Shown piece by piece: positions 2,092-4,559 of a stretch of 64,000 nt of DNA. Under the pieces are notes generated by a model that saw only the letters and a program-made list of their open reading frames with translations, was not told the DNA's origin and searched no databases. The stretch's first letter is position 1. Each line of letters starts with the position of its first letter. The position numbers and the translations under genes were made by a program. The stretch lies in IMG/VR virus record IMGVR_UViG_3300029415_000001. The stretch is one strand, 5' to 3'. Source of the stretch: a virus (lineage: Duplodnaviria; Heunggongvirae; Uroviricota; Caudoviricetes).

Positions 2092-4352
2092 AAGAGCTGT
2101 GCTATGGATCTGTTTGCAGTGGAATTGAAGCCGCGAGTATTGCCTGGGAACCGTTGGGTATGCGTCCGGCGTGGTTTGCTGAAATCGAGCCTTTTCCATC
2201 TGCCGTTCTTGCGCACCGCTGGCCCCATGTCGCCAACCTTGGCGACATGACAAAACTTGCCAAAAAAGTCCTGGCTGGGGAAATCGAATCCCCTGATGTG
2301 CTCGTCGGGGGTACGCCTTGTCAGGCATTCAGTATCGCGGGCTTACGTGGTGGGCTTGATGATGAACGCGGCGCGCTAACTTTGAAGTATGTGGAGCTTG
2401 CAAATGCAATTGACGACAAACGGTCTGAGTCCTTCCTCAAACCGACAGTTATCGTCTGGGAAAATGTCCCAGGAGTCCTGTCATCGGCAGATAACGCCTT
2501 CGGATGTTTCCTTGCCGGATTGGCTGGAGAAGATGCGCCATTTGAACCAGGTGATCGACCTGAATCAGGAAAAAGTAACGCGTTCTGGCGGTGGGATGGC
2601 AAAACCGGTTGCCATGCTCCAAAGTGGCCGCAGTGTGGTTGTATTTATGGACCGCAGCGAAAGGTGGCCTGGAGAATCCTTGATGCCCAATACTTCGGAG
2701 TGGCACAACGACGCCGACGCGTGTTTGTTGTCGCAAGTGCTCGAACAGACCTCGATCCCGCAACGGTACTTTTTGAGTTCGAAGGCGTGCGCCGGAATAT
2801 TGCGCCGAGCCGAAAAAAGAAGGAAATCGCTTCCGCCATTATTGCAAATGGCGCTGCAATCAGTGGCGAAAGCCTAAATCCATGCCTACATGCTGACATG
2901 CCACCCGGTATGAAATCGACGAAAGCCGTAAACGCTTTCAGGATGGCAGCATTTGGGGAATATATTGACGATGAAACCGCATCGACAGTAAAGGCAAGAG
3001 ATTTTAAAGATGCCACTGACCTTGCCGTTTTTAGCAGCACAGGAGCAGGTTTTTGGTCAGAAGGGCATGGTACATTGCGGGCACGAGAGCAAGAAAGCCA
3101 TGAGCATCTTGTTACATTGGCTTTTCCTGAGCGTATGAGCGGTACACAACATGCTGCAACTAAGAATACTTCACCATCTCTAATGGCTAAAAATCCAACA
3201 GCTGTTTGCTATGAAGTAAGAAACGCAGAAGTAGCTGTCCGCCGTCTTACCCCTGTCGAATGTGAAAGGCTGCAAGGTTTTCCTGATGGGCATACGTTGA
3301 TCCCGACGGAAAAGCGTAAAAAAGTTAATTCAGATGAACTGGCATATCTTCGCAATCACTATCCAGATTTAAGCGAAGAAGAGGCCGCGATGCTTGCAGC
3401 TGACGGACCGCGTTACAAAGCGATCGGCAATAGTATGGCAATACCAGTAATGCGCTGGATTGGCGATCGGATTACTAAGGCCGTATGTCGGCAGAAAGAA
3501 GGAAGTGAAACAAAAGAGCGAAAAGTTAAACCAGCGGCAGAATTCGAACGGTCCATATTCAAATGGGCTGGTGGAAAATTTGGTGTTCTGGAACAAATCT
3601 TTCGCTATTTGCCAGAAGGGAAGCGCCTGATCGAACCTTTTGTCGGTGGCGGAGCTGTCTTCACGAATGCCGGATACCAGGAAAATCTGCTAAATGATGT
3701 GAATGCTGACCTGATTAACTTTTACAAGACTCTGCAACGCGAGGCGCATTCACTTATCACACTGGCGCATCGTTTCTTCCAGGACTACAACACACAGGAA
3801 GGATACCTGGCAGTACGGAATGCGTTTAACAAACAAGTCTATGATGATTTACATCGCGCAGCGGCGTTTTTGTTCCTGAACCGACATTGTTTTAACGGAT
3901 TGACGCGTTACAACCAGGCCGGTGAGTTCAATGTCGGTTACGGGAAGTATAAAACTCCGTATTTCCCATTACAGGAGATGGAAGCCTTCCTCGGTGCGGA
4001 AGGGCGGTCTGAGTTTGTATGCGGTGATTTTGCAGCGGTGATTGAAGCTGCCGGAGAAGGAGATGTCATCTTTTGCGATCCGCCGTATGAACCGCTTCCA
4101 AATACAGAGGGATTCACGAACTATTCCGGTCATGACTTTAAGTTTGAAGAGCAAAAACGCCTGGTGTCTCTGTTGACGGATGCTCATCGTCGAGGTGCAA
4201 AGGTTCTCATTACTAACAGTGGCGCGCCAAACATCAGAGAGCTTTATCATGACAGTGGCTTCAGAGTGGAACCTCTTTTTGCCAGACGTTCTGTGTCTTG
4301 TAAGGGGGACACTCGAGGTGTAGCTCATGACGTTTTGGGTATATTGCTCTAA
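2088..4352 (+). CDS. dmt: bifunctional DNA methyltransferase: N-terminal C5-cytosine MTase motifs (GTPCQ, ENV) and C-terminal Dam-like N6-adenine MTase motifs (FxGxG, DPPY)
   Basis: 754-aa ORF; motifs [35 protein letters not shown]; position after hrdC as in P1. Confidence 0.85.
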
Positions 4353-4370
4353 TAAATTTATTAGTGTAAT
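4343..4370. promoter_or_regulatory. pair of overlapping divergent C1 operator-like sites at the dmt 3' end
   Basis: ATTGCTCTAATAAATTT (4343-4359, +) overlapping AAATTTATTAGTGTAAT (4354-4370, reverse orientation). Confidence 0.6.
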
Positions 4371-4533
4371 ATCGCCTCAATGAATCGTGATTTATAGAGC
4401 GATTTAGCTGTTAGCCGCGACAGGCGCGGCGGTAAGCATGGCTGGGCCTAGTCCTCCCAGACAAACCACCGAGTTGCCAGGTTGACCATGCGCCTAAGTG
4501 GCAACGCCGAAGTGCGTTACGAGCTTCCAGTTT

Positions 4534-4559
4534 GCCCATCTTCGGGTGGGCGTTTTTTT
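4534..4559 (+). terminator. intrinsic terminator (7-bp stem, UUCG tetraloop, T7 run)
   Basis: gcccatc-ttcg-ggtgggc followed by gttttttt. Confidence 0.6.

What the first reader, a model, noticed from the sequence alone, without database searches (positions are those of the whole stretch)
4343..4559. Possible C1-controlled short transcript between dmt and the tRNA array
Overlapping divergent operator sites at the dmt stop are followed about 170 nt later by a clean UUCG-tetraloop terminator, with no convincing ORF between. This is the footprint of a small regulated RNA.
Basis: seen in the sequence. Interest (0 to 1): 0.35.

Follow-up and report, generated by a model that had tools for sequence, protein, structure and literature searches.

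The report
P1 ban-operon leader RNA module
This is the start of phage P1's repressor-controlled ban operon, and its untranslated leader carries a conserved knotted RNA fold, shared with the precursor of the E. coli small RNA DicF, followed by a transcription stop signal; the piece was already loosely annotated, but what the fold does is unknown.

Summary
The window is phage P1 (99.6% identical). At the dmt stop lie two overlapping, divergent C1 operators (4343-4359 on +, 4354-4370 on -), which the P1 record annotates as Op72ab with the ban promoter. A strong UUCG terminator lies at 4533-4559, and no credible ORF lies between.

The P1 record also marks a "dicF-like region" here. That label is imprecise. 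The DicF model does not match. The similarity is to about 100 nt upstream of DicF, the 5' part of the known 190-nt DicF precursor.

That stretch (4401-4526) is a conserved pseudoknotted RNA with strong covariation, and Rfam has no family for it. It occurs in about 470 P1-like plasmids, in prophages of about 4200 of 5426 E. coli genomes, and in Serratia, Erwinia and Paraburkholderia. In 106 of 112 distinct copies a variable terminator cassette follows it. It sits at the head of early operons with no N gene found upstream.

A C1-controlled RNA of about 180 nt is therefore plausible, but the promoter also drives the tRNAs and ban. My leading reading is that the fold acts in cis on terminator read-through (about 0.4). 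The main rival is a stable small RNA that acts on its own (about 0.3). Neither has been tested in P1.

The parts
4343..4359 (+). C1 operator Op72a (Obana)
   Evidence: Perfect match to the operator consensus. Annotated in NC_005856.
4354..4370 (-). C1 operator Op72b (Obanb), overlapping Op72a by 6 bp
   Evidence: 2 mismatches to the consensus. Annotated.
4344..4372 (+). Sigma-70 promoter P1ban: -35 TTGCTC at 4344-4349, 17-nt spacer, -10 TAATAT at 4367-4372. Start inferred at about 4379/4380. A predicted P2ban lies at 4327-4358.
   Evidence: Annotation of NC_005856 mapped onto the window (locus coordinate + 1799). The generic promoter scan did not pick it up.
4381..4406 (+). 5'-terminal hairpin of the leader RNA (AAUCG...CGAUU). 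It also contains a 5-codon AUG-first mini-ORF at 4381-4398.
   Evidence: Fold of -7.0 kcal/mol, z = -2.2. The stem is invariant in six P1-like sequences.
4401..4526 (+). Conserved pseudoknotted RNA domain, the P1 copy of the 5' domain of the 190-nt DicF precursor
   Evidence: Covariance model R1 scores 90.2 bits, E = 4e-27, and this is the only strong hit in the 64-kb window. About 78% identical to Qin L002 3001-3097.
4414..4430 (+). Hairpin Pb (GCCGCG-ACAGG-CGCGGC)
   Evidence: 4 of 5 pairs show changes on both sides across the family.
4431..4470 (+). Helix P2 (GGU 4431-4433 with ACC 4468-4470), enclosing the 5' strand of the pseudoknot (GCAUGG 4436-4441) and hairpin P3 (4442-4446 with 4456-4460)
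   Evidence: P2 pair: U-A in 16, C-G in 6 and U-G in 1 of 24 sequences. A P3 stem of at least 4 bp is present in 85 of 85 distinct copies, with 33 different stems.
4473..4505 (+). Helix P4 (4473-4479 with 4499-4505) closing the near-invariant 19-nt loop GGUUGACCAUGCGCCUAAG (4480-4498). Loop bases CCAUGC (4486-4491) pair with 4436-4441 to form the pseudoknot.
   Evidence: P4: 8 of 9 pairs show compensatory changes. Pseudoknot: 100% paired, with one covarying pair, U-A in 18, C-G in 5 and U-G in 1 of 24 sequences. No disruptive combination occurs in 85 distinct copies.
4506..4532 (+). Tail or spacer between the domain and the terminator
   Evidence: Most variable part among P1-like sequences: substitutions and a 4-nt insertion or deletion. 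No special complementarity to the ftsZ leader.
4533..4559 (+). Intrinsic terminator: 7-8 bp stem, UUCG loop, U7
   Evidence: Invariant in P1-like sequences. Kept in phage D6, which lacks the domain.

Best explanation
The segment is the promoter-proximal leader of the C1-repressed ban operon of phage P1.

Shown or annotated:
- The C1 repressor sits on the bivalent operator Op72ab, which overlaps promoter P1ban.
- The first 180 nt downstream carry no gene.
- They carry a 5' hairpin, a conserved pseudoknotted RNA domain (4401-4526) and an intrinsic terminator (4533-4559).
- The domain is homologous to the 5' part of the 190-nt DicF precursor of lambdoid prophages, not to DicF itself.

Inferred:
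- When C1 is removed, RNA polymerase starts at about 4379/4380 and the domain folds on the nascent RNA.
- Some polymerases stop at the terminator and release a structured RNA of about 180 nt.
- The others read through into tRNA-Asn, tRNA-Thr, tciA and ban.

My committed reading of the conserved domain is that it works in cis on this decision. It would be a protein-independent leader element that lets the transcription complex pass the terminator immediately downstream, as HK022 put RNA does, although it is not related to put. The short RNA would then be a by-product or a second output.

Probabilities:
- Anatomy and homology: about 0.85.
- A discrete RNA of about 180 nt accumulates after induction: about 0.6.
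- The domain has a cis read-through role: about 0.35-0.4.
For: Identity and annotation: the window is 99.6% identical to P1. Op72ab, P1ban and the 'dicF-like region' are annotated there. The operators are far above chance, and the terminator is strong.

Homology: window 4415-4509 is about 78% identical to the 97 nt just upstream of DicF, in 4242 of 5426 E. coli genomes.

Structure: 92.9% of cells form pairs against 79.9% in shuffles. The covariation score is 0.368 against 0.147, reached by 0 of 500 shuffles. P4 has 8 of 9 compensatory pairs. P2 covaries. P3 is present in 85 of 85 copies with 33 different stems.

Link to terminators: 106 of 112 distinct copies have a hairpin plus U-run ending 39-135 nt after the conserved loop (median about 60). 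The script undercounts some distances because it stops at the U-run inside the DicF loop. The 37 distinct hairpin strings it returned include partial DicF segments, and by eye there are about 10 cassette types.

Position:
- In phage cdtI the order is cI, then PL (11 of 12 promoter match), then about 275 nt without an ORF, then the domain, the terminator, and the operon running to xis.
- In phage pPE4 the order is PL, the domain, two tandem terminators, then kil and exo.
- None of the ORFs next to PL matches a known antiterminator family.

These operons therefore have to pass strong terminators with no N gene found upstream of them.

Conservation: the domain is better conserved than what follows it. 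Within P1 relatives the invariant parts are the 5' hairpin, Pb, the pseudoknot, P4, the loop and the terminator, and the tail varies.

From established knowledge: ban lies about 2.6 kb downstream of Op72 and is expressed from it. In bac-1 lysogens this happens without other lytic phage proteins, so read-through needs no phage protein that C1 represses.
Against: - No transcript data for P1 were found.
- In Qin the main ydfA-containing transcript ends at dicF (1146 nt). The read-through species (1608 nt) accumulates only when RNase E is inactivated, and nothing longer was seen (PMC10448788). This does not look like efficient processive antitermination.
- Phage D6 keeps the same terminator and the tRNAs but lacks the domain.
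- The domain has no detectable homology to HK022 put or to the HK639 putL-like RNA.
- Single-sequence folding of the P1 domain is not better than shuffles (z = -0.96) and does not reproduce the consensus fold. The structure rests on comparative evidence only.
- Six divergent copies have no terminator within 260 nt.
Confidence: 0.4

Rival explanations
1. A free-standing, stable structured small RNA. The RNA of about 180 nt (5' hairpin, pseudoknotted domain, terminator hairpin) is the real product. It would be the P1 counterpart of the 190-nt DicF species. The conserved domain would act in trans, for example by binding a conserved host protein or RNA. Read-through into the tRNAs and ban would be simple leakage.
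For: - Both ends of the RNA are protected by hairpins.
- Promoter, RNA and terminator look like a complete gene.
- The homologous 190-nt RNA accumulates stably in E. coli.
- Lambdoid copies have an outer helix (GUUGUGGY with RCCACAAC) at the place where the RNase III-dependent 5' end of the 190-nt species should fall, counting 190 nt back from the terminator. That would excise the unit.
- The 19-nt near-invariant loop suggests a conserved partner.
Against: - It does not explain how N-less early operons get past one or two strong terminators.
- All copies lie in sense orientation inside early operons, and none was seen as an isolated gene.
- No partner or target is known.
Confidence: 0.3
2. A DicF-type base-pairing small RNA, which is the implicit meaning of the 'dicF-like' label. 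RNase E would free a tail-plus-terminator RNA of about 50 nt (4506-4559) that binds Hfq and pairs with ftsZ or other mRNAs.
For: - The arrangement is the same as for DicF: domain, short single strand, then terminator with U7.
- Other cassettes at this position include the functional sRNA DicF.
Against: - The Rfam DicF model gives no hit at E <= 1 in the window, while it scores 75-77 bits in Qin-type loci.
- The P1 tail differs from DicF in sequence, and it varies among P1 relatives, including a 4-nt insertion or deletion.
- Duplex energy with the ftsZ leader is worse than for shuffled tails, although this test was weak because the DicF control was not significant either.
Confidence: 0.1
3. A conditional attenuator of the riboswitch or protein-sensing type. 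The domain would be an aptamer whose state decides whether the adjacent terminator forms.
For: - The fold is compact and pseudoknotted, with invariant loops.
- The terminator starts only 13-36 nt after the domain.
- In many lambdoid copies the 3' strand of the outer helix (CCGCCACAAC) could pair with the 5' strand of the terminator (UUUGGCGG). This was seen by eye only.
Against: - The terminator sequences differ between cassettes (GGCGG..., GCCCAUC in P1, CCCGCCAA, and others). A conserved competing pairing is therefore unlikely.
- In P1 the terminator hairpin forms in both the minimum-energy and the centroid fold, and no alternative appears.
- No Rfam riboswitch matches.
Confidence: 0.1
4. 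No RNA-level function in P1. The segment would be a recombination relic from a lambdoid PL operon, and the terminator would merely insulate the ban operon from dmt transcription.
For: - The P1 ban leader is a mosaic holding a second lambdoid piece, the STnc100-like leader at 5953-6073.
- Phage D6 does without the domain.
Against: - 467 P1-like plasmids keep at least 80% of the segment.
- The P1 and P7 alleles differ by compensatory changes: CUGGG with CCCAG against GGGG with CCCC, and GCAUGG with CCAUGC against GUAUGG with CCAUAC. That is the signature of selection on the fold.
- A terminator placed downstream of Pban would also stop Pban transcripts.
Confidence: 0.08

Closest known systems
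190-nt DicF precursor of the Qin dicBF operon (Faubladier et al. 1990; Ragunathan and Vanderpool 2023, PMC10448788)
   Same: The 5' domain is homologous: about 78% identity, with the same P3, P4 and pseudoknot. In both, an intrinsic terminator follows within about 30 nt. Both lie in an early operon controlled by the prophage repressor, upstream of a cell-division or tellurite-type gene that is preceded by an STnc100-like leader.
   Different: The 3' part is not DicF. P1 lacks the outer helix that lies where the RNase III-dependent 5' end of the Qin precursor should map; in P1 the domain starts about 22 nt after the transcription start. In P1, tRNAs and plp/upl are inserted downstream.
HK022 putL/putR and the HK639 putL-like antiterminator RNAs
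   Same: All are structured RNAs of about 70-125 nt near the start of early operons, upstream of intrinsic terminators, in phages with no N gene found upstream of those terminators. This is a proposed functional resemblance only.
   Different: Model R1 finds no sequence or structure homology. The put RNAs are stem-loops without a loop-to-upstream pseudoknot. No evidence exists that this domain binds RNA polymerase.
Short leader RNAs that end at a terminator ahead of an operon: lambda 6S RNA and StxS from PR'-tR' (PMC7547250)
   Same: A promoter, about 180-200 nt of non-coding RNA, then an intrinsic terminator that must be overcome for the operon to be expressed. The terminated RNA can itself be a regulator.
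   Different: Those promoters are constitutive and read-through depends on protein Q. Here the promoter is repressed by C1, and no antiterminator protein is known in P1.
Rfam STnc100 / PasD family of prophage RNAs
   Same: The lambdoid copies, and other units in the P1 ban leader, share the same outer 'frame': a helix, then AAU, then a GC-rich hairpin.
   Different: The pseudoknotted core (P3, P4 and the 19-nt loop) is not part of STnc100, and Rfam does not match 4401-4526.

Membership tests
DicF sRNA (Rfam RF00039) | Match to the DicF covariance model at or above 48 bits | tested here: not met
   No DicF hit at E <= 1 in window 3800-7600. The same model scores 76.7 and 75.0 bits in Qin-type loci.
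DicF sRNA (Rfam RF00039) | Seed pairing with the ftsZ mRNA leader | tested here: inconclusive
   The P1 tail pairs worse than shuffled tails, but the DicF positive control was not significant in this crude duplex test either.
5' domain of the DicF-190 precursor (unnamed; model R1 built here) | Helix P4 closing the loop GGUUGACCAURCGCYURAG, the pseudoknot GYAUGG with CCAURC, and hairpin P3 | tested here: met
   90.2 bits, E = 4e-27. All helices are present at 4431-4505.
5' domain of the DicF-190 precursor (unnamed; model R1 built here) | Outer helix GUUGUGGY with RCCACAAC, at the inferred position of the RNase III-dependent cut | tested here: not met
   P1 and P7 lack it. They have CGAUUUAGCUGUUAG on the 5' side and GCCGAAGUGCG on the 3' side.
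5' domain of the DicF-190 precursor (unnamed; model R1 built here) | An intrinsic terminator cassette follows | tested here: met
   Terminator at 4533-4559. Across the family, 106 of 112 distinct copies have one.
HK022 put / HK639 put-like antiterminator RNA | Sequence or structure homology to put | tested here: not met
   Model R1 finds nothing in the HK022 early regions or at the annotated HK639 putL-like RNA.
HK022 put / HK639 put-like antiterminator RNA | Lies in an early operon upstream of terminators, in a phage without an N-type protein | tested here: met
   P1, cdtI and pPE4 layouts. No PHROG antiterminator family among the ORFs next to PL. A missed N analogue cannot be excluded.
HK022 put / HK639 put-like antiterminator RNA | Acts in cis on RNA polymerase (beta' zinc-binding domain) to suppress termination | not testable with these tools
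   Needs in vitro transcription or rpoC mutants.
Lambda-type nut site (boxA + boxB + N) | A boxA sequence followed by a boxB hairpin that N binds | tested here: inconclusive
   Lambdoid copies have a boxA-like UGCUCUYUYC about 12 nt before hairpin Pb (by eye). P1 has no clear boxA, and no N was found.
C1-controlled operators of the P1 immunity regulon | 17-bp asymmetric site ATTGCTCTAATAAATTT overlapping a promoter | tested here: met
   0 and 2 mismatches. Overlaps the -35 and the -10 of P1ban.
Riboswitch or transcription attenuator | Mutually exclusive pairing between the sensor and the terminator | tested here: not met
   The terminator forms in both the minimum-energy and the centroid fold. 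Terminator sequences vary between cassettes. No Rfam match.

The most novel reading that the evidence does not exclude
The conserved pseudoknotted domain is a third, structurally unrelated class of protein-independent phage antiterminator RNA, or more broadly an RNA that reprograms the elongating polymerase. It would be used by P1-like plasmid prophages and by a very large group of N-less lambdoid prophages to carry early transcription across the terminators of embedded small-RNA cassettes such as DicF.
Probability: 0.25. Interest if true: 0.8.

Novelty: new variant of a known kind. Interest (0 to 1): 0.5.

Why it matters
P1 is a classic model phage, and how its ban and tRNA operon gets past a strong terminator 180 nt from its promoter has never been explained. 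The same RNA fold sits in front of DicF, one of the oldest known bacterial small RNAs, in most E. coli genomes, and it has been treated as mere precursor sequence.

If the fold controls read-through, it would explain how a whole group of lambdoid prophages without an N protein express their early left operons, including the toxic genes dicB and kil. It would also add a new RNA that acts on RNA polymerase.

If instead it is the body of a stable RNA, it is a widespread phage RNA of unknown function. Either way, Rfam lacks the family, and it can be tested directly with simple reporter and Northern experiments.

Tried and rejected
- **Rfam:** a permissive scan of 3800-7600 found no family over 4380-4560. 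The weak tmRNA-type hits at 4523-4691 (E = 0.04-0.19) are noise.
- **Homology to put:** the model built here finds nothing in HK022 or HK639.
- **Coding potential:** three ORFs, none matching Pfam or PHROGs.
- **ftsZ pairing of the P1 tail:** no signal, and the test was weak. A scan of the whole window for targets timed out.
- **Single-sequence thermodynamics:** z = -1.7 for the whole leader and -0.96 for the domain. The predicted fold disagrees with the comparative one, so I relied on covariation.
- **My first guess for extending the pseudoknot** (GGY with GCY in the loop): this showed no covariation. RNAalifold's helix P2 (GGY with RCC) does covary, so I adopted it.
- **Literature:** searches for P1 transcript data, Op72/Pban, and DicF with antitermination found nothing on this domain. 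The P1 genome paper and King et al. 2011 are not held.
- **Pas sRNAs (2026 preprint):** these lie in the late Q-S region, not at this position.
- **tRNA-like reading:** four helices in cloverleaf order and a GGUUGA loop suggested it, but ARAGORN and the Rfam tRNA model do not support it.
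Full report
**What the window is.** Bases 4300-5030 are 99.6% identical to phage P1 (NC_005856). 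The P1 record annotates the following features at the site of the finding:
- the end of dmt;
- the bivalent C1 operator Obanab, formerly Op72ab;
- the sigma-70 promoter P1ban and a predicted P2ban;
- a miscellaneous feature called 'dicF-like region', which maps to about window 4467-4568;
- about 470 nt further on, tRNA-Asn and tRNA-Thr, then plp and upl on the other strand, tciABC, tRNA-Ile and ban.

**Check of the observation.**
- Op72a is ATTGCTCTAATAAATTT at 4343-4359 on the + strand, with 0 mismatches.
- Op72b is ATTACACTAATAAATTT at 4354-4370 on the - strand, with 2 mismatches.
- The two overlap by 6 bp and cover the dmt stop (ORF 2088-4352).
- Operator-like sites are heavily enriched: 17 in the window against 0.34 expected.
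- P1ban has -35 TTGCTC (4344-4349), a 17-nt spacer and -10 TAATAT (4367-4372). This puts the start at about 4379/4380, which is inferred from the annotation.
- The terminator has a 7-8 bp stem at 4533/4534-4551/4552, a UUCG loop and U7 at 4553-4559. Its energy is -12.8 kcal/mol with z = -3.7.
- Between promoter and terminator there are only ORFs of 32, 33 and 110 aa with TTG or GTG starts. None matches Pfam or PHROGs.

**What 'dicF-like' really means.** The Rfam DicF model does not match the window at E <= 1, although it scores 75-77 bits on Qin-type loci. A sensitive BLAST of 4373-4565 against 5426 complete E. coli genomes gave two kinds of match:
- full-length matches on about 477 P1-like plasmids;
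- a match of about 78% identity for query bases 43-137 (window 4415-4509) on the chromosomes of most genomes; 4242 of 5426 genomes have a match of some kind, with up to 7 places per genome.

The chromosomal places lie between ydfC and dicB. They end 24 nt before the first base of DicF (L002 3001-3097, with DicF at 3122-3173). Published work shows that DicF exists as a 53-nt form and a 190-nt form. The 5' end of the 190-nt form depends on RNase III, and its 3' end is the DicF terminator (PMC10448788). Counting back 190 nt from the terminator places that 5' end at the start of the conserved stretch. The P1 segment is therefore homologous to the 5' domain of the DicF-190 precursor, not to DicF.

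**It is a structured RNA.** I collected copies from several sources:
- GenBank phage records;
- IMG/VR viral contigs;
- one genome per species, filtered for true copies.

Divergent members came from viral contigs L021, L137/138/141/143, L139 and L142, and from Serratia symbiotica, Trabulsiella, Erwinia tracheiphila, Citrobacter and a Paraburkholderia. On a 24-sequence alignment (A3) the named structure gave these results:

| Measure | Observed | Shuffled control |
|---|---|---|
| Cells forming a pair | 92.9% | 79.9% |
| Covariation score | 0.368 | 0.147 (reached by 0 of 500 shuffles) |
| Cells paired after sliding the partners | - | 30-45% |

The individual elements are as follows.
- **Helix P4:** 8 of 9 pairs have compensatory changes. 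Its stems include GUUGCCA/UGGCAAC, GGGUUGUCA/UGACAACCC, GGCAAUU/AAUUGCC, GUAACGCG/CGCGUUAC and UCCGCUGG/CCAGCGGA, 18 different stems in all.
- **Loop of P4:** it is the near-invariant 19-mer GGUUGACCAURCGCYURAG.
- **Pseudoknot:** loop bases CCAURC pair with an upstream GYAUGG. Only GUAUGG/CCAUAC (73 copies), GCAUGG/CCAUGC (8) and the wobble form GUAUGG/CCAUGC (4) occur among 85 distinct copies. The disruptive combination never occurs.
- **Hairpin P3:** it follows AUGG(C) directly in 85 of 85 copies, with 33 different stems.
- **Helix P2:** RNAalifold added this 3-bp helix (GGY with RCC), which covaries, with U-A in 16 and C-G in 6 of 24 sequences.

The covariance model built from A3 finds one strong hit in the 64-kb window, at 4401-4526 (90.2 bits). 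Folding the P1 sequence alone does not recover this structure and is not significant, so the evidence is comparative.

**Where the domain sits.** In 106 of 112 distinct copies, a hairpin followed by a U-run ends 39-135 nt after the conserved loop. For the DicF cassette the script stopped at the U-run inside the DicF loop. The distances for those copies are therefore underestimates, and the 37 distinct hairpin strings it returned include partial DicF segments. The sequence between the domain and the terminator differs from group to group, with about 10 cassette types by eye. These include DicF, the P1 type, a cdtI type, a pPE4 type and a Salmonella F1055 type. One cassette, in L139, is an Rfam abiF RNA.

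The domain lies in the early leftward operon, downstream of the repressor gene. Three layouts show this.
- **cdtI:** cI and its terminator, PL (TTGACA-16-CATAAT), about 275 nt with no real ORF, the domain, the terminator, then genes running to xis.
- **pPE4:** PL, about 190 nt, the domain, two tandem terminator cassettes, an STnc100-like leader, then kil and exo.
- **Qin and mEp460:** two or three small ORFs of unknown function precede the domain.

None of the eight ORFs tested, most of which lie between PL and the domain, matches an antiterminator family in PHROGs. These operons thus contain one or two good intrinsic terminators near their start, with no N-type gene found upstream of them. 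Six divergent copies have no nearby terminator (L021, L137/138/141/143 and the Paraburkholderia copy). In L021 the domain lies between recT and a replication gene.

**The P1 version.** The P1 leader has, in order:
- a 5' hairpin (4381-4406);
- hairpin Pb (4414-4430);
- helix P2 (4431-4433 with 4468-4470);
- the 5' strand of the pseudoknot (4436-4441);
- hairpin P3 (4442-4460);
- helix P4 and its loop (4473-4505);
- a 27-nt tail;
- the terminator.

It lacks the outer helix GUUGUGGY/RCCACAAC that lambdoid copies have at the inferred position of the RNase III-dependent cut. This fits its position about 22 nt from a transcription start.

The segment is kept in 467 plasmid records, in identity bands of at least 99%, 95-99% and 80-90%. 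The P1 and P7 alleles differ mainly in P3 and in the covarying pseudoknot pair, both in a compensatory way. Among six P1-like sequences, the promoter, operators, 5' hairpin stem, Pb, pseudoknot, P4, loop and terminator are invariant. The tail has substitutions and a 4-nt insertion or deletion. Phage D6 has other structured sequence in place of the domain but keeps the terminator and everything downstream. No other strong + strand terminator lies between 4560 and the end of ban.

**How it most likely works.**
- *Shown or annotated:* C1 operators overlap the promoter, so the leader is made only when C1 is removed.
- *Inferred:* the nascent RNA folds into the domain. At 4533-4559 some complexes terminate and give an RNA of about 180 nt protected by hairpins at both ends. 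The rest continue to the tRNAs and ban. From established knowledge, ban is expressed from Op72, including in bac-1 lysogens that make no other lytic proteins.

For the role of the domain I favour a cis action on read-through, at about 0.35-0.4. The reasons are:
- it is more conserved than the cassettes that follow it;
- it sits immediately before terminators that the operon has to pass;
- it is close to the promoter;
- no antiterminator protein was found;
- conserved structures in operon leaders are usually cis-regulatory.

The main rival, at about 0.3, is that the 180-nt RNA is itself the functional product. The stable 190-nt Qin species and the excision helix support that view.

Several observations count against efficient antitermination. 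The 1146-nt ydfABC-dicF species predominates in Qin, and no species longer than 1608 nt was seen. D6 lacks the domain. There is no homology to put.

A DicF-like base-pairing role for the tail is unlikely. A riboswitch-type attenuator is unlikely because terminator sequences vary and no alternative pairing appears in P1. A pure relic is unlikely given the compensatory changes between the P1 and P7 alleles.

**Comparison with known systems.**
- The segment is a member of the family defined by the 5' domain of DicF-190, though without the outer helix.
- It is not a member of the DicF family or of the put family.
- It works like the leader RNAs that end at tR' ahead of lambdoid late operons (lambda 6S, StxS). 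It may also work like put.
- Lambdoid copies carry a boxA-like UGCUCUYUYC about 12 nt before Pb. This is only a lead towards involvement of Nus factors, and P1 has no clear boxA.

**Novelty.** The operators, the promoter and a 'dicF-like' label are already in the P1 record. I found no description of the following points in the papers available:
- the similarity is to the precursor domain rather than to DicF;
- this domain is a covarying pseudoknotted RNA absent from Rfam;
- it is spread over P1-like plasmids, most E. coli genomes and other genera;
- it is systematically paired with variable terminator cassettes at the head of early operons with no N gene found upstream.

I rate it a new variant of a known kind, with interest 0.5.

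Noticed in passing
window 5930-6110 (+): There is a partial Rfam STnc100 hit at 5953-6073 (37.8 bits, below the gathering score of 47), just upstream of the tciA-like ORFs. It aligns in conserved blocks with the dicF-dicB spacer of Qin and with the leader before kil in phage pPE4. The P1 ban leader therefore holds two separate pieces of a lambdoid dicBF-type operon.
   Followed up: partly
window 5250-5400 and 5680-5775 (+); L009 2445-2535; L191 7098-7245: A shared RNA 'frame' recurs with different interiors: GUUGUGRUGAAU, then the hairpin GCRCAGGCUGAUGYGC, then CCGGAGAUCAGC and CAYCACAAC. In Paraburkholderia the interior is the pseudoknotted domain itself. In P1 these units lie antisense to the annotated plp and upl genes, which raises doubt about those ORFs.
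   Followed up: partly
window 5179-5268 (+): A long stem (CAACAGGUAAGGGUA with UACCCUUACCGUUG) encloses a perfect tRNA T-arm (GGGUUCGAAUCCC), directly after tRNA-Thr. ARAGORN and the Rfam tRNA model do not call it. It may be a tRNA-like processing unit or a decayed tRNA.
   Followed up: no
window 6324-7254: This P1 relative differs from the reference after the start of tciA. A 275-aa SPFH/Band_7 ORF lies at 6324-7151, and tRNA-Ile(CAU) is at 7179-7254, about 570 bp further than collinearity with NC_005856 would place it.
   Followed up: partly
L139 1721-1757: An Rfam abiF RNA motif (61.3 bits against a gathering score of 37) starts at the last base of the stretch I extracted for the domain copy (L139 1603-1721), in the place where other phages have DicF-type cassettes.
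   Followed up: no
L098 1171-1359; L066 4732-4920: isrK and C4 antisense RNA modules lie about 300 nt downstream of the domain on the same strand. Some prophages therefore string several RNA modules together in the early operon.
   Followed up: no
L008 1600-1760 (phage pPE4): The terminator cassette, including the CCCCGCCACAAC strand of the outer helix, is duplicated in tandem. This puts two intrinsic terminators before kil.
   Followed up: no
L007, L166, L188, L193 downstream of the domain: The cassettes of Salmonella phage F1055, Serratia, Trabulsiella and Erwinia contain a Shine-Dalgarno sequence and an AUG inside the long terminator hairpin. This looks like a translated leader or attenuator design.
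   Followed up: no
window 4381-4398 (+): The leader RNA would begin almost directly with AUG, and the reading frame encodes MNRDL followed by a stop. It overlaps the 5' hairpin. It could be a leaderless mini-ORF or a coincidence.
   Followed up: no
upstream of the domain in lambdoid copies (for example L007, L188, L022) and window 5938-5950: A boxA-like motif (UGCUCUYUYC, and UGCUCUUUCC in P1 at about 5940) precedes the frames by about 10-12 nt. This was judged by eye and not tested statistically.
   Followed up: partly
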